Made by a program: the position numbers and the translations under genes. Below the pieces are notes generated by a model. That model worked only from the letters and a program-made list of their open reading frames with translations, did not search any database and was not told the origin of the DNA. Below, in pieces: positions 2,417 to 31,332 of a stretch of DNA of 36,638 nt. Numbering within the stretch: the stretch's first letter is position 1; every line of letters begins with the position of its first letter. The stretch is from a virus. Its lineage: Duplodnaviria; Heunggongvirae; Uroviricota; Caudoviricetes. The stretch lies in IMG/VR virus record IMGVR_UViG_2541047702_000001; one strand, given 5' to 3'.

Positions 2417-4602
2417 GAAACTTCCCCATTGGTTGAAAATATAGCTCCTCCAACGCCAAGTGTATTTCGTGTTGTGCTCAACCTCAGAGGGCTGGAGTCA
2501 GAATTAGAATATCCTGTAGCAGAAATAAAAGATCCTCCACTAATAGTCAACTGCGGAACATCGGCTATATCTGAATAAGTTCTGTCAGCAACAGTATTAT
2601 TTATAGCCACATATGATCCAAAAAAACTTCTTATTGTTTGGTTTTTAACTTTACTTCCTTCAATGGTTATCCTACTACCACAGTCGGCAATAAATCCTGA
2701 ATCTGCATCCAGCGTTGCATTCATAAAAGAAGCTTCAGATCTCTCTACATCAATCCATCTAATATCTTTTGTGGGATTTGCACCAAATACATGACAAATA
2801 TTAGAGTTAAACCTTACACCATCTTGGAGGTGCATTAATTTTTTTATATCTGTACCCCATAGCCTTGGAAAATTAACAGATGCTCCTGCATGGCAATCAA
2901 ATCCCAGCTCAGCCCCTGAGATATCTACAGCCTTTCCTGAAATAACAGCACCAGTGTCTGCATTAACGGCTGTTCCACAATTGCGCATATCATTACCAGC
3001 AACATCAACGCAACCCGCACCATCAATACGCACACCAAGTGCACATCCATAAAAACCTTTTTCAATATTTGGTTCAAGGACTTTACCACTTGTTTCTGCA
3101 TCACTTTCTTCAACGTCATGTCGTCTTGCATCAACATATGCTGTATGAATGCAGGTTAATCCACGATATGAGCAATGTATAGTTTTATGGTCGCGTATAT
3201 TAACATTTGAACCATCTCTTACATTCCATCCTATATAACAATAGCTTGCACTTGACCCCTGAAAATCTGCTTTAACATTATAAATACAATTAACTGACGC
3301 AACCGTACTCTCTGTGCACCGTTCAAACTTGCTTACAGGCATTGATGCCTTGACATTATTTACCAGTTGCAGGGAAGAGTATCTGCTATAAGAAAAATCA
3401 CATACGTAATACCCTTCTGGCATATATGCAGCAACACTTTCCTCATCAGGAGCACATCCGGTATGATATGCACTAATTTTTGCACCAAAACTACCATGAA
3501 TTCCAACGTAGAACTTTCGAGCACCTGAATACGGATAGAAATTAAGTTCAGCTTTTTGAGTTACAATAAATGCACAAACATCGCTATCATCTCTATTTTC
3601 TTCGATCTGAATAGCAAATACAGGACTTTTTGCTGCATCGCAAATGTAAAATAAATACTTGTATTCGTAATACGTTCTAACGATTTTAGTAAACAAACGA
3701 GTGTCAGAGAAAACCACTGAGTCTTCTGATGTTATTTTAATCCAAGACAAATCAACACCTGAACTGAATTCAATTTGATAGTTGATAATATGCCCGGTCT
3801 TAATTCTTATTTCGCAGAAAGCATTACCACCATCCCACATAGGTCTCATTGACTGGGCTGCAATGATTGCATCTTTGAGTGTAGGGTAATCACCCCATTC
3901 GCCAACAGTAATAACAAAAGTATAATATGAGTTAAAAACAGCGGCATTTTTGCCTTTGGATATCAACTCCTTAATCATAAAAATATTATCTTCGTAATCA
4001 CAAGGAGAAATTATATCCCTCATTTTGCTTTGAAATGTTCGTTGTCTTGCCCCGCTTCCTGACGGTATAAACCAACCAAAACCACCAACAACCCCGGCGA
4101 TTGCAGCATCGACATAATTACGCATTGAGCGATTATTTACAGCGTCCTGCTCAAGTGATGGATCTGCAAGGTTAGAAATTCTGTTTTGCTTTGCATCGTA
4201 ATATTTTGCAAGCAAAGATGGTTTCATCAATGCACGTCTGAACCACCCGAAACATCGCTGGATCAGCATCGTCAGGTAGTCAAATGCATCCTCATGAACT
4301 TCGGGGAAAAATTTTCCCTGATTGCGAAGATCAGTCTCCTGCACCACATCAAGCACACGCTCTATCGTAATTCGCCATCCAGCAGCAAGCGGCGACGGGA
4401 GAACCACTTCACCGCCACTATAAGTGCCCGCTCCAGTTACCTTATAACCGGTATCCAGAACCAATTCTGTTACGTTCCCGTTCAGGTCAGACACCTGAAC
4501 AACCAGGTCGGTTTTTTTGAAAATACGGAAGGTATACGGAAATGATGTCGTAACGCCGTTACCGGTGTATTCGTTGTGGTCAACTTCGGTTGAGACCGTC
4601 AT
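2413..4602 (-). CDS. Tailspike / receptor-binding protein with conserved N-terminal virion-attachment domain and C-terminal Cys/Gly-rich probable beta-helix domain
   Basis: 729 aa; N-terminus MTVSTEVDHNEYTGNGVTTSFPYTFRIF... matches the N-terminal domain I recall from epsilon15/phiV10-type tailspikes; GGAG Shine-Dalgarno 8 nt upstream of ATG 4602; C-terminal 500 aa rich in Gly, Cys, Asn, Ser. Confidence 0.7.
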   Translation of the reverse strand: MTVSTEVDHNEYTGNGVTTSFPYTFRIFKKTDLVVQVSDLNGNVTELVLDTGYKVTGAGTYSGGEVVLPSPLAAGWRITIERVLDVVQETDLRNQGKFFPEVHEDAFDYLTMLIQRCFGWFRRALMKPSLLAKYYDAKQNRISNLADPSLEQDAVNNRSMRNYVDAAIAGVVGGFGWFIPSGSGARQRTFQSKMRDIISPCDYEDNIFMIKELISKGKNAAVFNSYYTFVITVGEWGDYPTLKDAIIAAQSMRPMWDGGNAFCEIRIKTGHIINYQIEFSSGVDLSWIKITSEDSVVFSDTRLFTKIVRTYYEYKYLFYICDAAKSPVFAIQIEENRDDSDVCAFIVTQKAELNFYPYSGARKFYVGIHGSFGAKISAYHTGCAPDEESVAAYMPEGYYVCDFSYSRYSSLQLVNNVKASMPVSKFERCTESTVASVNCIYNVKADFQGSSASYCYIGWNVRDGSNVNIRDHKTIHCSYRGLTCIHTAYVDARRHDVEESDAETSGKVLEPNIEKGFYGCALGVRIDGAGCVDVAGNDMRNCGTAVNADTGAVISGKAVDISGAELGFDCHAGASVNFPRLWGTDIKKLMHLQDGVRFNSNICHVFGANPTKDIRWIDVERSEASFMNATLDADSGFIADCGSRITIEGSKVKNQTIRSFFGSYVAINNTVADRTYSDIADVPQLTISGGSFISATGYSNSDSSPLRLSTTRNTLGVGGAIFSTNGEVS

Positions 4603-21983: not shown

Positions 21984-22060
21984 GTGGCATTAGCTCAGTT
22001 GGACAGAGCAACCGCCTTCTAAGCGGTTGGTCGCAGGTTCGAATCCTGCATGCCACGCCA
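21984..22060 (+). tRNA. tRNA-Arg, anticodon UCU (reads AGA)
   Basis: Manual cloverleaf: acceptor GTGGCAT/ATGCCAC, D-stem GCTC/GAGC, anticodon stem ACCGC/GCGGT with loop CTTCTAA, T-stem GCAGG/CCTGC with loop TTCGAAT, discriminator G and encoded CCA; 77 nt. Confidence 0.85.
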
Positions 22061-28385: not shown

Positions 28386-28422
28386 TTACGTGGGCGTAAA
28401 AAAATGCGCTATCGCGCTGGTA

Positions 28423-29223
28423 TTACTTGATAAATCCTGCCGCCTTTCCCCGCCTGTATTCCTCCATCAGCCACTGCGCCGGTGTTATTCCCCCCAGGGT
28501 GGCGGCGTTAGGCATACACCCGAAACTTCGCCCTGGTGGATGGTAAACGTCTCTCCCTGTGTCCGGAGGCGTACTCATGGGTTCTGGCTTTGCCTGTATG
28601 CTGATCACCGGATCGGGTATCTGCTGTCCGGAAGCCACCTTTTTCGCCCAATCATCGAGCAGCCTGCGCGCGTGTTTCTCAACCTCAATCTCGCTAAGCT
28701 GGCGCTGATACATTGCGCGGCGGGTATCACATACGACCCAGTACATAACCGGATGTCGCCACGGGAATCTTTCGGGACCACCAGGATATAAACTTTTTTC
28801 CTTGCTGTACCGGTGAAACTCCGCCATCACATCGTCAATGGTGACGCCAAGAACCATCTTGCTGTCTTTGCACCACTTGATAAATTGCCCTGGCGACGGC
28901 CAGAACGGAGATTCACTGGCGCGAGCGTGGCGCATACCAGCAGAAACCTGTTCACGGGTTCGGATCCCCCCTTCAGCAAACGCAGCAATCCACTGCTGTT
29001 TTGCAGCAACTTCCTGCTCTGGCGTCTTCAGGTTGGTTACCACTGCCGCCGGAAACAGTTGTTTCAGCTGTTTGAAAAGGGCATCAACAAGCCTCTCTGC
29101 TGACATGTTCACTACGTTGTCATTGTTGGTGTACTGATGCTCATAACCTGACATGCGAGAAAGGGCTTCTCCGTCACGGTTTTGTATCGCGGTAAAAACG
29201 TTGTTCACAAGAAATCCTCCCAT
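28423..29223 (-). CDS. Replication protein P-like (DnaB helicase loader)
   Basis: Strong resemblance to recalled lambda P: QQWIAAFAEGGIRTREQVSAGMR and FWPSPGQFIKWCKD versus lambda RRQWVLAFRENGITTMEQVNAGMR and FLPSPGQFVAWCRE. Possible true start GTG 29208 (GGAGGA upstream, GTGA overlap with O stop). Confidence 0.7.
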   Translation of the reverse strand: MGGFLVNNVFTAIQNRDGEALSRMSGYEHQYTNNDNVVNMSAERLVDALFKQLKQLFPAAVVTNLKTPEQEVAAKQQWIAAFAEGGIRTREQVSAGMRHARASESPFWPSPGQFIKWCKDSKMVLGVTIDDVMAEFHRYSKEKSLYPGGPERFPWRHPVMYWVVCDTRRAMYQRQLSEIEVEKHARRLLDDWAKKVASGQQIPDPVISIQAKPEPMSTPPDTGRDVYHPPGRSFGCMPNAATLGGITPAQWLMEEYRRGKAAGFIK

Positions 29224-29996
29224 GCTTCAGGGCTGTTCCAGTGCGGAACGTTGTTATCAGGTAATGTTGATTGCTTCTGTCTGCTAATCTGCAGCCGCCT
29301 TGCCAGCTTCTGCTCCCACTGTGCCTGATGGTATGCCTTACCCTCAGCCATCCAGTAAATTCTGAACTCTGCAAGTTCCTGTGCCGTTGGCAGACTGTCC
29401 AGGTAGATCCCCTGCAATGAGCTTTTCCGAAGAAAGTCATCTGATGGCTGCCATTGTTCATGCATGACAAATTTGCCTAATTGCCCTGGCCCACCAGGAG
29501 GAACAAAGTTATTCATCACGGCGTTGTTTGCGCCTGGGTCATGAGGCACAGAATCCCCGGTTTTTGTCCTGCTCTCCCTCTCTTGGTTAAATGACTGGTT
29601 ATATGACTGGTTCTGGATCCCGTTTTTGGGATCATTCAACATCCCGTTTTTGGGTATATTCCCGTTTTCGGGAACATTACCGTTTTCGGGTTCATTACCC
29701 CCCTCCCGGTTGCCTTTAATGTTCCCGTTTTTGGTTATATTAAGAGAGAAAACCCGCACTCTTTTCGTCGCTCCCTTTCTCTCTCCGGTATCTGAAATAA
29801 GCCCCATTTTCATGAGCGATATAAGTCCGGCCTGCACGGTTTTTTTATTCAGGCAAGTGTCTTTAACGAGGCGTTCTATGCTGGGGTAGCAGAGGTTATA
29901 TTCATCGGCTCTGTCAGCCATCGAGAGCAGTATGAGCTTTAATGACGAGCTACCTGGATCTGTCTCCCAGGCCCAATCTGTTGCATGTCTGCTCAT
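29205..29996 (-). CDS. Replication initiator (lambda O-like) with origin iterons inside the coding sequence
   Basis: 263 aa; N-terminal HTH-like region; central Asn/Gly-rich repeat ENGNVPENGNIPKNG encoded by iterons; GGAG Shine-Dalgarno 9 nt upstream of ATG 29996; directly precedes P-like gene. Confidence 0.6.
   Translation of the reverse strand: MSRHATDWAWETDPGSSSLKLILLSMADRADEYNLCYPSIERLVKDTCLNKKTVQAGLISLMKMGLISDTGERKGATKRVRVFSLNITKNGNIKGNREGGNEPENGNVPENGNIPKNGMLNDPKNGIQNQSYNQSFNQERESRTKTGDSVPHDPGANNAVMNNFVPPGGPGQLGKFVMHEQWQPSDDFLRKSSLQGIYLDSLPTAQELAEFRIYWMAEGKAYHQAQWEQKLARRLQISRQKQSTLPDNNVPHWNSPEAWEDFL
29617..29735. repeat. Putative ori: five iterons of consensus (A/T)TCCCGTTTT(T)SGG at 29617-29630, 29641-29654, 29659-29672, 29677-29690, 29722-29735
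   Basis: Direct repeats read in sequence, spacing 24, 18, 18 and 45 bp; additional tandem ATGACTGGTT x2 at 29591-29612. Confidence 0.6.
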
Positions 29997-30011
29997 GATT
30001 AATCTCCGCTA

Positions 30012-30281
30012 TCAGCTTGAATGTTGTGGGGAGGAATTAATCATGATCTGCTTAATCTCTGCCCTGATACGACGGTTTGATTCCATGGTGCACTCAACAC
30101 AGTGTCCGTTGTAAACCCAGCGTTCACTGTCATGTCCGTGCTTACATGTTTTTCCGGTGTAGTAGCGTTTAAGTCCGCGCTTTGCGGCATCAATACGTGT
30201 AATGATTTCCATGGTAAGCCCTGTTATTGGTATTGGGATTACGGTCATTTTGTGCTGACACAAAAAAAAGATCAACCACAT
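30012..30281 (-). CDS. Small Cys/His-containing protein at the CII position (between cro-like gene and O)
   Basis: Motif YYTGKTCKHGHDSERWVYNGHCVEC; start uncertain (ATG 30281, 30248 or 30212, none with a good Shine-Dalgarno). Confidence 0.35.
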   Translation of the reverse strand: MWLIFFLCQHKMTVIPIPITGLTMEIITRIDAAKRGLKRYYTGKTCKHGHDSERWVYNGHCVECTMESNRRIRAEIKQIMINSSPQHSS

Positions 30282-30292
30282 TTGGTTTTTTA

Positions 30293-30307
30293 TTACCTTT
30301 GAGGTAC
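30293..30307. promoter_or_regulatory. Operator-like site TTACC-TTTGA-GGTAC (1 mismatch) downstream of the cro terminator
   Basis: Read in sequence; sits between terminator 30310-30341 and the CII-position gene. Confidence 0.4.
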
Positions 30308-30309
30308 GA

Positions 30310-30341
30310 ATAGATATGAAAAGACCGCCGGGTGGCGGTCT
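30310..30341 (-). terminator. Intrinsic terminator after the cro-like gene (tR1-like): AGACCGCC-GGGT-GGCGGTCT then TTTTCATATCT on minus strand
   Basis: 8-bp stem, T-run on minus strand. Confidence 0.6.
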
Positions 30342-30362
30342 ACAGAGGGTTGTAGCTGGATA

Positions 30363-30593
30363 TCATGAGTAGAAGAAGTATGCCAGTTCTGCTTTTGAGC
30401 GCAACCATTGTCTTGTTTTACAGGCTTTAAAAAGCCCATTCATCAATACTTTACCTGGCATTTTGCGCTTACCTGTTAAGTGAGTCTGGATATAATGACT
30501 CGTCGTTCCGGCTTCCTGTGCGAAGGCTTCACGCTCATCCGGAGTAAGTGCAAGCCAGTGCTTTTTGAAATCGAAATGTCCGTTATCGCTCAT
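30363..30593 (-). CDS. Cro-like HTH regulator
   Basis: 76 aa; HTH-like segment REAFAQEAGTTSHYIQTHLTGKRKMP; divergent from repressor gene across a three-operator region. Confidence 0.5.
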   Translation of the reverse strand: MSDNGHFDFKKHWLALTPDEREAFAQEAGTTSHYIQTHLTGKRKMPGKVLMNGLFKACKTRQWLRSKAELAYFFYS

Positions 30594-30628
30594 AGCTATT
30601 GCCTGATATTTATTTCAGATAATAAATA

Positions 30629-30691
30629 TTCACCCATAAGGTAACAAAAATCAAGGATAGTTACCTATGGGGTGCATTTACCTGTTGGGTA
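30629..30691. promoter_or_regulatory. Tripartite operator region between divergent cro-like and repressor genes: TCACC-CATAA-GGTAA (30629-30643), TTACC-TATGG-GGTGC (30660-30674), TTACC-TGTTG-GGTAA (30677-30691, exact)
   Basis: Three sites of the same palindromic family in a 147-bp AT-rich intergenic region, analogous to OR1-3. Confidence 0.6.
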
Positions 30692-30747
30692 ATATTGCTT
30701 TAAATTGAATCATCTACTGATTCATATATGAGGCGATTTTCCAGAAA

Positions 30748-31332
30748 ATGAAAAGTATCCAGGACGTCCGCAGGCAAAATCTCAACGACTTGATCGACCG
30801 TGAATTCAATGGTGTTCAGACGCGGATGGCAGAAAAACTTGGAACTCAGGCAAATCTGGTAAACCGCTGGGCTCTTGGCAAGAAGGTTATCGGCGACCAG
30901 GTTGCGCGAAAAATTGAAGCTGCCGCCAATAAACCCCGTAACTGGCTTGATATCGATCGCTCGCTTTCTCAGGAAGGTTTTCAGCCTGTCGGCCCAAGCG
31001 ACATTGGTCAGCTGGCGGCTCACAACCTGGAACGCTGGATGAGCGAAAGCCGCGACCTTTCAACACAGGGAAAACTTCACCGCGCATCCGGCGTCGCCCA
31101 GGTGACAATCAGCCGCCTGTTAAACAATGAGGTCAGCGTTTCCATTTCCACCCTGGAGAATGTTGCATCCGCATTCGGGCGTCACGGCTATGAATTACTG
31201 ATTCACCCGCACGACCCTGCGACCATCAACTATGACCGCTCGCGCTACGCATTGTTACCCGAAACCGAGAAAGCAAAGATCGAAAGTTACATTGAATTTG
31301 TCATCAACCAGAACGAAAAAAACAAACAATAA
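30748..31332 (+). CDS. Prophage repressor (CI-position) with two tandem XRE-type HTH domains and no recognisable S24 peptidase domain
   Basis: 194 aa; two HTH-like segments (about residues 20-70 and 95-150); C-terminus lacks Ser/Lys peptidase motifs; followed by terminator and a second operator cluster; weak ribosome-binding site (possibly leaderless-like). Confidence 0.6.
   Translation: MKSIQDVRRQNLNDLIDREFNGVQTRMAEKLGTQANLVNRWALGKKVIGDQVARKIEAAANKPRNWLDIDRSLSQEGFQPVGPSDIGQLAAHNLERWMSESRDLSTQGKLHRASGVAQVTISRLLNNEVSVSISTLENVASAFGRHGYELLIHPHDPATINYDRSRYALLPETEKAKIESYIEFVINQNEKNKQ

What the first reader, a model, noticed from the sequence alone, without database searches (positions are those of the whole stretch)
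29589..29735. Replication origin iterons embedded in the O-like initiator gene
Five direct repeats of about 14 bp (ATCCCGTTTTTGGG x2, TTCCCGTTTTCGGG, TTACCGTTTTCGGG, TTCCCGTTTTTGGT) at 18-24 bp phasing, plus a tandem ATGACTGGTT x2, lie in the middle of ORF 29205-29996 and encode a repetitive N/G/P-rich linker. This mirrors the lambda arrangement of ori inside O, and the next gene is clearly P-like, giving a complete O-P-ori module.
Basis: partly seen in the sequence, partly recalled or inferred. Interest (0 to 1): 0.5.

Follow-up and report, generated by a model that had tools for sequence, protein, structure and literature searches.

The report
Phage replication origin inside its initiator gene
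The five short repeats are real and are almost certainly the binding sites of a phiV10-like E. coli phage's replication origin, placed inside the phage's own initiator gene as in phage lambda, so this is a well-supported but ordinary kind of feature.

Summary
Observation confirmed. Five copies of TYCCGTTTTYGGK lie at 29617-29735 and nowhere else in the 36.6-kb window (0.26 expected by chance). A 12-nt tandem repeat lies at 29584-29612. Both sit in the linker-coding middle of the minus-strand gene 29205-29996.

The window is a phiV10-like Uetakevirus. The gene encodes an HTH_36 winged-helix N-domain, a linker, and a C-terminal domain about 48% identical to the E. coli DnaT C-terminal domain. 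The next gene is a true lambda P homologue (31% identity, E 2e-36).

Comparative evidence for an origin is strong.
- In 35 loci found through the N-domain protein alone, the iteron core is about 260-fold enriched just after the N-domain coding part. It is always on the coding strand and often falls in different reading frames.
- The repeats travel with the N-domain when the C-domain and P are swapped. They are absent when the N-domain is swapped.
- Loci whose N-domain has a different putative "wing" segment carry different repeats.
- E. coli alleles carry 5-8 copies.
- A second element, 2-4 tandem GAACCAGTCAT 12/13-mers after the last iteron, is also conserved.

The initiator is only a functional analogue of lambda O: its N-domain is a remote homologue at best and its C-domain is DnaT-like. 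No experiment exists, and the unwinding site is only inferred. Verdict: new member of a known kind, modest interest.

The parts
29205..29996 (-). Replication initiator gene (263 aa): HTH_36 winged-helix N-domain, a linker encoded by the origin repeats, and a DnaT-CTD-like C-domain
   Evidence: Listed as an ORF. Pfam HTH_36 matches aa 18-67 (E 1.7e-10) and Pfam DnaT matches aa 176-244 (E 1.1e-15). phrog_1032 'replication initiation protein' matches at E 8e-103. The phiV10 orthologue is annotated 'replication initiation protein'.
29733..29996 (-). Coding region for the N-terminal origin-binding domain (aa 1-88)
   Evidence: This stretch aligns with N-domains of 40-87% identity from 33 other loci. 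Homology to relatives that have other C-domains ends at about aa 131.
29722..29735 (-). Iteron 1 (coding strand ACCAAAAACGGGAA), 45 nt upstream of iteron 2
29677..29690 (-). Iteron 2 (coding strand CCCGAAAACGGTAA)
29659..29672 (-). Iteron 3 (coding strand CCCGAAAACGGGAA)
29641..29654 (-). Iteron 4 (coding strand CCCAAAAACGGGAT)
29617..29630 (-). Iteron 5 (coding strand CCCAAAAACGGGAT), flanked by GATC sites at 29616 and 29630
29577..29612 (-). Tandem 12-mers AACCAGTCATAT / AACCAGTCATTT plus a degenerate third unit AACCAAGAGAGG. This is the candidate DNA-unwinding or helicase-loading element.
   Evidence: TRF score 51. The element is conserved as 2-4 tandem GAACCAGTCAT(N) units of 12 or 13 nt directly after the last iteron in relatives from Enterobacterales to Vibrio, Pseudoalteromonas, Marinobacterium, Desulfovibrio and Burkholderia. 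The least stable 60-bp window within the gene is 29583-29642.
29554..29576 (-). Purine-rich tract with an iteron-like remnant (GGACAAAAACCGGGGAT); probably not a functional iteron
   Evidence: The key position varies among otherwise near-identical alleles (AAC, ACC or AGC).
29226..29483 (-). Coding region for the DnaT C-terminal-domain homologue (aa 172-257)
   Evidence: PDB 9zbt, 6aep and 4ou6 (DnaT) match at E 6.5e-21 to 4e-20, with about 48% identity counted from the alignment.
28423..29223 (-). Lambda-P-like helicase loader gene. Relatives annotate the start at 29208, a GTG that overlaps the initiator stop codon.
   Evidence: Pfam Phage_lambda_P E 1.5e-56. 31% identity to lambda P, E 2e-36. 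phrog_109 'P-like helicase loader' E 5.6e-93.
30322..30341 (-). Intrinsic-terminator-like hairpin between the cro-like gene and the replication genes (position analogous to tR1)
   Evidence: The same site is annotated as a terminator in phiV10.
30363..30593 (-). Cro-like small regulator, first gene of the leftward operon that contains the initiator and P
   Evidence: phrog_35 'transcriptional repressor' E 5.6e-13; gene order.
30619..30647 (-). Sigma-70-like promoter candidate (analogous to pR) that would transcribe through the origin
   Evidence: a consensus match only.

Best explanation
The repeats are the initiator-binding sites (iterons) of this phiV10-like temperate phage's replication origin, and the origin lies inside the initiator's own gene.

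Proposed mechanism:
1. The leftward early operon (cro-like gene, terminator, small ORF, initiator, P) is transcribed through the origin. This step is inferred.
2. The initiator's N-terminal winged-helix (HTH_36) domain binds the five direct repeats. The extended family consensus is GAAT-N3-CCC(A/G)AAAACGG(G). Binding is inferred from co-inheritance, covariation and frame-independent conservation.
3. The resulting multi-protein complex destabilises the adjacent tract of tandem AACCAGTCAT 12-mers and purine-rich DNA (29554-29612). This step is inferred, and the thermodynamic support is weak.
4. Several C-terminal domains are held close together by the flexible linker that the iterons themselves encode. 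These domains are homologous to the DnaT C-terminal domain, which forms helical filaments on single-stranded DNA, so they capture the opened strand and mark the helicase-loading site. This is inferred from about 48% identity to E. coli DnaT-CTD.
5. The lambda-P-like protein delivers host DnaB. It contacts the initiator's C-terminal part, because that part and P are inherited together.
For: - Non-randomness: 5 sites against 0.26 expected, none elsewhere in the window, and the two top TRF arrays of the window.
- Domain composition: HTH_36 plus DnaT-CTD, followed by a lambda P homologue.
- Independent comparative test: 27 genome loci were retrieved using only two N-domain peptides, and 6 phage loci by tblastn with the N-domain. 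Across these and the window, the core CC[AG]AA[AT][ATC][CT]GG occurs 104 times in gene nt 240-560, all on the coding strand. It occurs 10 times in the remaining roughly 279,000 strand-positions. That is about a 260-fold enrichment.
- Selection acts on DNA, not on the peptide. In 11 loci, including GF-2, PPompW, Bcep176, L015 and L028, iterons of a single array sit in 2-3 different reading frames.
- Modularity. GF-2 shares only the N-domain and the iteron-coded linker (aa 1-131, 52% identity) and keeps the same type of iteron, yet its C-half is 62% identical to lambda O and its P is 55% identical to lambda P. Tyrion and a Klebsiella phage share only the C-domain (36%) together with a P that is 83-86% identical. 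They have an unrelated N-domain and lack these iterons.
- Covariation. Loci with this iteron type share the segment DTGERKGxTKRVxV, which I take to be the wing. Loci L033, L034 and L036, which have a shorter and different segment there, carry different repeats.
- Copy number. E. coli alleles of more than 93% identity carry 5-8 iterons through gain or loss of 18- or 24-nt units. This parallels lambda (4 iterons) against Stx phages (6 iterons) (PMC7466680).
- The layout matches the annotated ori-lambda, and the iteron sequences look alike: TCCCTCAAAACGAGGGA in lambda against TCCCAAAAACGGGAT here.
- DnaT-CTD forms filaments on ssDNA and marks the helicase-loading site (PMC13377028).
- An 8.46-kb circular E. 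coli record contains little more than repressor, cro, YdaT, a related initiator with the same iterons, and P. This resembles lambda-dv.
Against: - There is no experimental evidence for binding, unwinding or initiation at this site in this phage or any close relative. Literature searches found nothing.
- There is no strongly A+T-rich block like lambda's 40-bp region. The 12-mer tract is only about 67% A+T, and its 60-bp window ranks in the least stable 7.5% of the phage window. The least stable 30-40 bp of the gene lies at the other end of the array (29714-29753), and intergenic stretches at 30285-30320 and 30605-30660 are less stable.
- Dyad symmetry beyond CC..GG is weak across the family, with 43-50% complementarity at the flanking positions. 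Dimer binding as in lambda O is therefore not established.
- The 18-nt and 24-nt spacings are not in helical phase.
- The enrichment motif was derived from this family. The loci were, however, retrieved by protein sequence only.
Confidence: 0.8

Rival explanations
1. The repeats do bind the initiator, but they are not where replication starts. They act as an autoregulatory, titration or handcuffing array, like the incA iterons of P1, or as a roadblock within the operon. Under this reading strand opening occurs elsewhere, for example in the A+T-rich intergenic DNA at 30240-30320 or 30600-30660.
For: The least stable DNA of the 28400-30700 region is intergenic, not next to the iterons. The array varies from 5 to 8 copies without any obvious constraint.
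Against: The intergenic A+T-rich stretches carry no repeats of any family. A second conserved DNA element, the 12/13-mers followed by an A-rich tract, always directly follows the last iteron. Its strand polarity matches that of lambda's unwinding region. In lambda and Stx phages, the same layout is the experimentally defined origin (PMC5043065, PMC7466680). The iterons occur once per genome, so there is no second array for handcuffing.
Confidence: 0.1
2. The repeats are only a by-product of a repetitive, low-complexity protein linker (PKNG/PENGN repeats) that expands and contracts by slippage. They have no function as DNA.
For: In the window all five copies are in one reading frame and encode similar pentapeptides. 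Copy number changes in multiples of 3 nt.
Against: In 11 related loci the same DNA motif is read in two or three different frames within a single array. Examples are GF-2 (TQKRD against DPKIG), PPompW, and Bcep176 with 17-nt and 22-nt spacings. The motif is always on one strand and sits at one position relative to the N-domain. It disappears when the N-domain is replaced and stays when the C-domain is replaced.
Confidence: 0.04
3. The repeats are binding sites for a host factor rather than for the phage initiator.
For: The 12/13-mers accompany the array whatever the C-domain type, and no binder for them has been identified.
Against: No DnaA box or IHF consensus lies within 29000-30400. The iteron sequence covaries with the phage N-domain's putative wing segment, across hosts ranging from Enterobacterales to Desulfovibrio and Burkholderia. 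That pattern fits a phage-encoded binder.
Confidence: 0.04

Closest known systems
ori-lambda within gene O, with gene P downstream (lambda and Stx phages 933W and P27)
   Same: An array of direct repeats lies in the part of the initiator gene that encodes the interdomain linker. Each repeat has C-rich and G-rich ends around an A-tract (TCCCTCAAAACGAGGGA in lambda, TCCCAAAAACGGGAT here). An A-rich tract follows on the coding strand. The initiator has a bipartite logic: the N-domain goes with the iterons and the C-domain goes with P. A true P homologue follows directly, with an overlapping start. The gene order is cro-like, terminator, initiator, P. Iteron number varies between relatives (PMC5043065; PMC7466680).
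   Different: The initiator does not match Pfam Phage_rep_O and shows no BLASTP similarity to lambda O. The only link is that both proteins hit phrog_678 and phrog_345. The iteron core is 14 bp rather than 18-19 bp, with weaker dyad symmetry. There are tandem 12/13-mers instead of a 40-bp block of about 80% A+T. The C-domain is DnaT-like, not O-type.
Edwardsiella phage GF-2 'replication initiation O-like' protein and other HTH_36-type phage initiators (phrog_1032, phrog_6643, phrog_391)
   Same: They share the N-domain (52-57% identity), the iteron type (GATCCCAAAATTGGGAT, CACCCAAAAACGGGAT), the post-iteron CAGAATCAGTCAT repeats, and the position within the gene.
   Different: The C-terminal half of the GF-2 protein is of the lambda O type (62% identity to lambda O aa 156-299), and it is paired with a P that is 55% identical to lambda P. 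The window pairs the same origin module with a DnaT-like C-domain and a different P lineage.
E. coli DnaT (primosomal protein i, replication restart)
   Same: The C-terminal 86 residues are about 48% identical to the DnaT-CTD (E 6.5e-21). This is the domain that forms filaments on ssDNA and marks the helicase-loading site (PMC13377028).
   Different: The DnaT N-terminal domain and the PriB-docking linker are absent. The NCBIfam DnaT equivalog scores 85 bits against a cutoff of 201. Localisation would come from sequence-specific origin binding rather than from PriA and PriB. The partner is a P-type loader.
Iteron-containing plasmid origins (RK2 oriV with TrfA, pPS10, F, P1)
   Same: Direct repeats bind the replicon's own initiator and lie next to a set of short tandem repeats (13-mers) in the unwinding element. 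In some of these systems the initiator also contacts one opened strand (general knowledge; PMC5043065, PMC4980987).
   Different: No Rep_3 or WH1-WH2 Rep family match was found. Here the origin lies inside the coding sequence. The helicase is delivered by a lambda-P-type loader.

Membership tests
Lambdoid 'origin inside the initiator gene' replication module (functional class) | An array of three or more direct repeats inside the initiator ORF, between the two domain-coding parts | tested here: met
   Five repeats lie at gene nt 262-380, between the HTH_36 domain (aa 18-67) and the DnaT-like domain (aa 172-257).
Lambdoid 'origin inside the initiator gene' replication module (functional class) | Repeat sequence is inherited with, and covaries with, the initiator's N-terminal DNA-binding domain | tested here: met
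   About 260-fold enrichment in 35 loci retrieved by the N-domain alone. The repeats are absent with an unrelated N-domain (Tyrion, Klebsiella phage). Different repeats accompany a different putative wing segment.
Lambdoid 'origin inside the initiator gene' replication module (functional class) | Initiator C-terminal domain is inherited together with its helicase loader | tested here: met
   Window against Tyrion: C-domain 36% identical and P 86% identical. GF-2: lambda-type C-domain (62%) with a lambda-type P (55%).
Lambdoid 'origin inside the initiator gene' replication module (functional class) | A+T-rich unwinding region directly after the last iteron | tested here: inconclusive
   The 12-mer tract is about 67% A+T and ranks only in the least stable 7.5% of 60-bp windows. 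Several relatives have a clear A-rich tract at this position.
Lambdoid 'origin inside the initiator gene' replication module (functional class) | Initiator binds the repeats, and replication starts there | not testable with these tools
   Needs EMSA or footprinting, and replication assays or initiation mapping.
Lambda O protein family (Pfam PF04492 Phage_rep_O) | Significant match to the Phage_rep_O profile or to lambda O itself | tested here: not met
   No PF04492 hit at E <= 0.01, whereas lambda O itself scores 5.7e-36. The best BLASTP E-value against lambda O is 0.07. The only link is indirect: both proteins hit phrog_678 and phrog_345 over overlapping profile positions.
Lambda P family (Pfam PF06992) | Profile match above the gathering score, and direct similarity to lambda P | tested here: met
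   191 bits against a cutoff of 26, E 1.5e-56. 31% identity over 204 aa, E 2e-36.
DnaT (primosomal protein, NCBIfam NF002770 equivalog) | Full-length match, including the DnaT N-terminal domain and linker | tested here: not met
   Only aa 173-256 match, scoring 85 bits against a cutoff of 201. The N-terminal half is HTH_36.
DnaT (primosomal protein, NCBIfam NF002770 equivalog) | Presence of the C-terminal ssDNA-binding domain | tested here: met
   Pfam DnaT E 1.1e-15. PDB 9zbt, 6aep and 4ou6 at E about 1e-20.
Iteron-plasmid Rep proteins (Rep_3 / WH1-WH2) | Match to a plasmid Rep family profile | tested here: not met
   The only Pfam hits are HTH_36 and DnaT.

The most novel reading that the evidence does not exclude
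This initiator may be an origin-tethered version of the replication-restart protein DnaT. Under this reading the iteron array exists to concentrate DnaT-CTD-like domains. These domains then form a filament on one strand of the adjacent, sequence-conserved 12/13-mer element and hand the site to a P-type helicase loader. The conserved GAACCAGTCAT tandem would then be a specific single-strand recognition or loading element, analogous to the oriC or RK2 13-mers, rather than merely easily melted DNA. The C-domain or the conserved tail VPHWNSPEAWEDFL would be the docking site for the loader. If true, this gives a simple two-protein system for asking how a DnaT-type filament recruits a helicase-loader complex. 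That question is stated as unresolved for E. coli DnaT (PMC13377028).
Probability: 0.25. Interest if true: 0.6.

Novelty: new member of a known kind. Interest (0 to 1): 0.35.

Why it matters
The analysis places the probable replication origin of the phiV10 group of temperate phages. Prophages carrying this gene are present in 424 of 5426 complete E. coli genomes. No origin is annotated in the phiV10, BP9 or phiv142-3 stretches or the E. coli alleles inspected, and none of the papers searched describes one.

It also defines a family-wide origin signature: GAAT-N3-CCCAAAAACGG iterons followed by GAACCAGTCAT 12/13-mers. This signature could be used to annotate origins in many prophages of Gammaproteobacteria and beyond.

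The practical uses are the design of phiV10-based reporter or delivery phages and of mini-replicons.

The conceptual interest is modest, because the feature extends the lambda paradigm to an initiator built from a different winged-helix domain fused to a host DnaT-like domain.

Tried and rejected
- A single-sequence AlphaFold2 model of the initiator was unusable (mean pLDDT 37.7, pTM 0.25). No structural claim rests on it. The winged-helix and 'wing' assignment rests on Pfam HTH_36 and the usual topology of that fold.
- The search for related loci with the 7-sequence N-domain alignment failed because no stretch was conserved enough. A 3-sequence alignment worked.
- I looked for a lambda-like A+T-rich unwinding block with nearest-neighbour stability profiles and found none that is convincing.
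- I looked for DnaA boxes and IHF sites near the array and found none.
- Folding the origin strand as ssDNA gave z = -1.6, which is not significant. The 'terminator-like' hit at 29627-29646 on the + strand is just iteron sequence.
- Rfam gave nothing in the region.
- I considered a sixth iteron at 29554-29570, beyond the 12-mers. I rejected it as functional because its key position varies (AAC, ACC or AGC) among nearly identical alleles.
- I considered each iteron as a perfect palindrome bound by a dimer, as in lambda. At family level, symmetry outside CC..GG is weak, so I leave this open.
- Literature searches for a phiV10 or epsilon15 origin, and for the motif strings themselves, returned nothing relevant.
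Full report
**1. Observation**

On the + strand they are ATCCCGTTTTTGGG at 29617 and 29641, TTCCCGTTTTCGGG at 29659, TTACCGTTTTCGGG at 29677 and TTCCCGTTTTTGGT at 29722. Spacing is 24, 18, 18 and 45 nt. The degenerate pattern TYCCGTTTTYGGK, with up to 1 mismatch, matches five times in the 36.6-kb window on both strands, and all five matches are here. Shuffles give 0.26 matches on average, and none of 100 shuffles reaches five. The tandem ATGACTGGTT x2 is part of a 12-nt tandem at 29584-29612. Tandem Repeats Finder ranks the 18-nt array (29644-29699, score 77) and this 12-nt array (score 51) as the two strongest tandem repeats in the window. All of this lies in the middle of ORF 29205-29996, which is on the minus strand. 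On the coding strand the repeats read (A/C)CC(A/G)AAAACGG(G/T)A and encode TKNGN, PENGN, PENGN, PKNGM and PKNGI, followed by QNQSYNQSF.

**2. Context**

The window is a phiV10-like Uetakevirus, an epsilon15-like temperate podovirus of E. coli. The stretch 28400-30300 is 96-99% identical to phiV10, phiv142-3, PAS61 and others. On the minus strand the gene order is as follows:
- a promoter-like site at 30619-30647;
- a cro-like gene at 30363-30593;
- a terminator hairpin at 30322-30341;
- a small ORF;
- the initiator at 29205-29996;
- a P-like gene at 28423-29223, whose annotated start in relatives overlaps the initiator stop;
- a DUF1064 gene.

The repressor gene (30748-31332) is divergent. None of the phage or E. 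coli stretches inspected (phiV10, BP9, phiv142-3 and the E. coli alleles) carries an origin annotation.

**3. The proteins**

The initiator (263 aa) has three parts:
- an HTH_36 helix-turn-helix domain at aa 18-67 (E 1.7e-10);
- a low-complexity linker at about aa 88-171;
- a DnaT-type domain (Pfam E 1.1e-15).

The last 86 residues align with solved E. coli and Klebsiella DnaT C-terminal domains at E about 1e-20 and about 48% identity. However, the DnaT equivalog model is far below its cutoff, at 85 bits against 201. The protein is therefore not a DnaT orthologue. PHROGs place it in phrog_1032 'replication initiation protein'.

It shows no detectable direct similarity to lambda O (BLASTP E 0.07) and does not match Pfam Phage_rep_O, which lambda O matches at 5.7e-36. 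The only link is indirect. The N-terminal parts of both proteins hit phrog_678 and phrog_345 over overlapping profile positions. This suggests remote homology between the two origin-binding domains.

The downstream protein is a clear lambda P homologue. It matches Pfam at 1.5e-56 and is 31% identical to lambda P over 204 aa (E 2e-36). It belongs to phrog_109 'P-like helicase loader'.

**4. Comparative evidence that the repeats function as DNA and belong to the N-domain**

(a) Close relatives. The gene is present in 424 of 5426 complete E. coli genomes, with allele lengths from 792 to 864 nt. The alleles I fetched carry 5-8 iterons, differing by whole 18-nt or 24-nt units, and two or three 12-mers. 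The window belongs to the shortest class. This parallels the four iterons of lambda against the six of Stx phages (PMC7466680).

(b) Distant relatives. A tblastn search with the N-domain found phages of Edwardsiella, Vibrio, Acinetobacter, Burkholderia, Moraxella and E. coli at 40-58% identity. A genome scan seeded only with two N-domain peptides returned 27 loci. These range from Superficieibacter and Marinobacterium to Pseudoalteromonas, Desulfovibrio and Sphingobium. Almost all of them carry a repeat array directly after the N-domain coding part.

The core CC[AG]AA[AT][ATC][CT]GG occurs 104 times in gene nt 240-560 of these 35 loci, always on the coding strand. It occurs 10 times in the remaining roughly 279,000 strand-positions. 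That is about a 260-fold enrichment. A count matrix of 82 sites from 20 non-redundant loci extends the consensus to GAAT-N3-CCC(A/G)AAAACGG(G)A. It also shows that symmetry outside CC..GG is weak.

(c) Reading frame. In 11 loci the iterons of a single array lie in two or three different frames. GF-2 reads TQKRD in one copy and DPKIG in others. PPompW reads TQKRE, RPKNR and TPKNG. Bcep176 has 17-nt and 22-nt spacings. The conserved entity is therefore the DNA and not the peptide.

(d) Module swaps.
- GF-2 aligns with the window initiator only over aa 1-131 (52% identity) and keeps the same type of iteron. Its C-terminal half is 62% identical to lambda O aa 156-299, and its P is 55% identical to lambda P.
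- Enterobacter phage Tyrion and a Klebsiella phage show the reverse. They align only over the C-terminal aa 126-263 (36%) and have a P that is 83-86% identical. Their N-domain is unrelated, and they have no such iterons.

This is the classical lambda logic: the N-domain goes with the origin and the C-domain goes with P.

(e) Covariation. All loci with this iteron type share the N-domain segment DTGERKGxTKRVxV, which I take to be the wing of the winged helix. L033, L034 and L036 have a shorter and different segment there and carry different repeats (ACCAGTCGGAAAAAT, CCACCAGTGCCAAA, CTACCAGTAG). Mcat8 and two Acinetobacter loci, which have other changes in the N-domain, also carry different repeats.

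**5. A second conserved element**

Directly after the last iteron, nearly all relatives have CAG followed by 2-4 tandem units of GAACCAGTCAT(N):
- window: AACCAGTCATAT AACCAGTCATTT AACCAAGAGAGG;
- Vibrio salinus: GAACCAGTCAGTA GAACCAGTCATA;
- GF-2: GAATCAGTCATTA GAACCCAACATA GAATCAAACATA;
- Desulfovibrionaceae: GAACCTATCATA GAACCAATCAGTA.

The 9-mer AACCAGTCA, with up to 1 mismatch, is 14-fold enriched in this position. The unit length is 12 nt in some loci and 13 nt in others, so successive copies fall in different frames. Again the conservation is at DNA level.

The tract is A-rich on the coding strand, typically 20-26 A against 7-10 T in 50 nt. Lambda's unwinding region has the same bias, 28 A against 8 T. 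Many relatives add a clear poly-A-rich stretch.

In the window itself the tract is only about 67% A+T. The least stable 60 bp of the gene is 29583-29642, which ranks in the least stable 7.5% of the window. The least stable 30-40 bp lies at the other end of the array, at 29714-29753 (least stable 1.5%). Intergenic DNA nearby is less stable still. I therefore treat the 12-mer tract as the probable unwinding or helicase-loading element on grounds of conservation and position, not on thermodynamic grounds.

**6. Mechanism**

What is shown:
- the domain composition of the initiator;
- the homology of P to lambda P;
- the non-random repeat arrays;
- frame-independent conservation of the repeats;
- co-inheritance of the repeats with the N-domain;
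- covariation of repeat sequence with the N-domain.

What is inferred:
- The N-domain binds each iteron.
- The assembled complex opens the adjacent 12-mer and purine-rich tract.
- The DnaT-CTD-like domains, concentrated by the array and tethered by the linker, bind the exposed strand. In E. coli this domain forms a helical filament on lagging-strand ssDNA that marks the helicase-loading site (PMC13377028).
- P delivers DnaB through contact with the initiator's C-terminal part. The C-terminal tail VPHWNSPEAWEDFL is identical in Tyrion, whose C-domain is otherwise only 36% identical. It is therefore a candidate docking motif.
- Transcription through the origin from the pR-like promoter probably contributes, as in lambda (PMC5043065).

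**7. Natural hints of autonomy**

Several circular 38.7-41 kb 'plasmid' records are whole phage genomes of this type. One 8.46-kb circular E. coli record (pZ1323HEC0067-2) contains a repressor, cro, YdaT, a related initiator with four iterons of the same type, P, and no other recognisable replication gene. This resembles lambda-dv. It could also be an assembly product, so it is only suggestive.

**8. Rival explanations**

A pure protein-repeat explanation is excluded by the frame analysis. A 'regulatory array, with the origin elsewhere' reading cannot be excluded by computation. It is disfavoured because the conserved second element adjoins the array, no second array exists, and the layout is identical to the experimentally defined lambda and Stx origins. 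Binding by a host factor is disfavoured because the repeats covary with the phage N-domain across very different hosts, and no DnaA or IHF sites are present.

**9. Novelty**

This kind of feature is textbook: an origin inside the initiator gene, a bipartite initiator, and a P-type loader. The specific origin, its iteron consensus and the 12/13-mer element appear in none of the searchable papers or the annotated stretches I examined. The DnaT-like C-domain is already recognised by annotation pipelines ('DnaT-like ssDNA-binding domain-containing protein'). I rate this a new member of a known kind, with modest interest. The more novel possibility is that the DnaT-type filament and the conserved 12/13-mers act together as a loading element.

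Noticed in passing
window 29577-29612; L006, L013-L031 just after the last iteron: Tandem 12/13-mers GAACCAGTCAT(N) directly after the iteron array are conserved across phages and prophages of very different hosts. They occur whatever the C-domain type, and successive copies are in different reading frames. Both the iterons and these units begin with (G/T)AAY.
   Followed up: partly
L040-L044, L001, L003 (E. coli alleles of window 29205-29996): Iteron copy number is polymorphic, 5-8 copies, through gain or loss of 18-nt or 24-nt units, among alleles more than 93% identical. The gene occurs in 424 of 5426 complete E. coli genomes. The window carries the shortest array seen.
   Followed up: partly
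L006 (Edwardsiella phage GF-2) 1501-2343: This is a natural hybrid initiator. It combines the window-type N-domain and iterons with a lambda-O-type C-terminal half, including a stretch that aligns with lambda's TCGTCAGAGAATTCTGGCGAATCCTCTGAC segment just after the origin, and it is paired with a lambda-type P.
   Followed up: yes
L004 3279-4046 (Tyrion); L005 3306-4073, palindrome 3707-3743: These initiators have the same DnaT-like C-domain and P but an unrelated N-domain (MARIRTIKPEFW...). They lack the iterons. Instead they show an 18-nt-arm inverted repeat and two copies of CCGTATCAGTACCG 160 nt apart, which may be a different origin design.
   Followed up: partly
L007 (Vibrio phage H8) 1501-1968: The annotated initiator ORF stops immediately after a perfect array of 24-nt iterons (4-5 copies), giving a 155-aa protein that is N-domain only with no C-domain. 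The origin there lies at the 3' end of a short gene.
   Followed up: no
L046 (pZ1323HEC0067-2, 8461 bp circular) and L045 (Klebsiella, 8600 bp): These small 'plasmid' records consist of a prophage immunity and replication segment: repressor, cro, YdaT, a DnaT-like initiator with the same iteron type, and P. They may be lambda-dv-like circles or assembly artefacts. L045 contains one iteron-like sequence (GATCCCGTTTTTTCC) in inverted orientation.
   Followed up: partly
hits H1 (Escherichia phage BP9, 138 kb Vequintavirus record, 134633-136533) and H2 (phage PH444, 115 kb): phiV10-like replication genes, 98-99% identical, sit near the end of a record classified as a large lytic Vequintavirus. This looks like a chimeric or contaminated assembly rather than real biology.
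   Followed up: no
window 29205-29250 (aa 250-263 of the initiator): The C-terminal tail VPHWNSPEAWEDFL is identical in Tyrion and nearly identical in the Klebsiella phage, although the rest of the C-domain is only about 36% identical. E. coli DnaT has a different tail. It is a candidate P-docking peptide.
   Followed up: no
window 29616 and 29630: Two GATC (Dam) sites bracket iteron 5, the iteron next to the 12-mers. The 24-nt repeat unit that is duplicated in the longer alleles carries the same GGGATC/GATCCC junctions.
   Followed up: no
window 21984-22060 (+): A phage-borne tRNA-Arg (anticodon TCT) is also annotated in the O157 typing phages 9 and 10.
   Followed up: partly
L032, L037 (Symbiopectobacterium MAG): Copies of the initiator N-domain are frameshifted or truncated and their repeat arrays have been replaced, which is consistent with decaying prophages in a symbiont genome.
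   Followed up: no
window 30012-30281 (-): A small ORF lies directly upstream of the initiator (66 aa as annotated in relatives; phrog_1081, unknown function). It contains CxxH...CxxC-like spacing (KTCKHGH...HCVEC) and occupies the position of cII in lambda.
   Followed up: no
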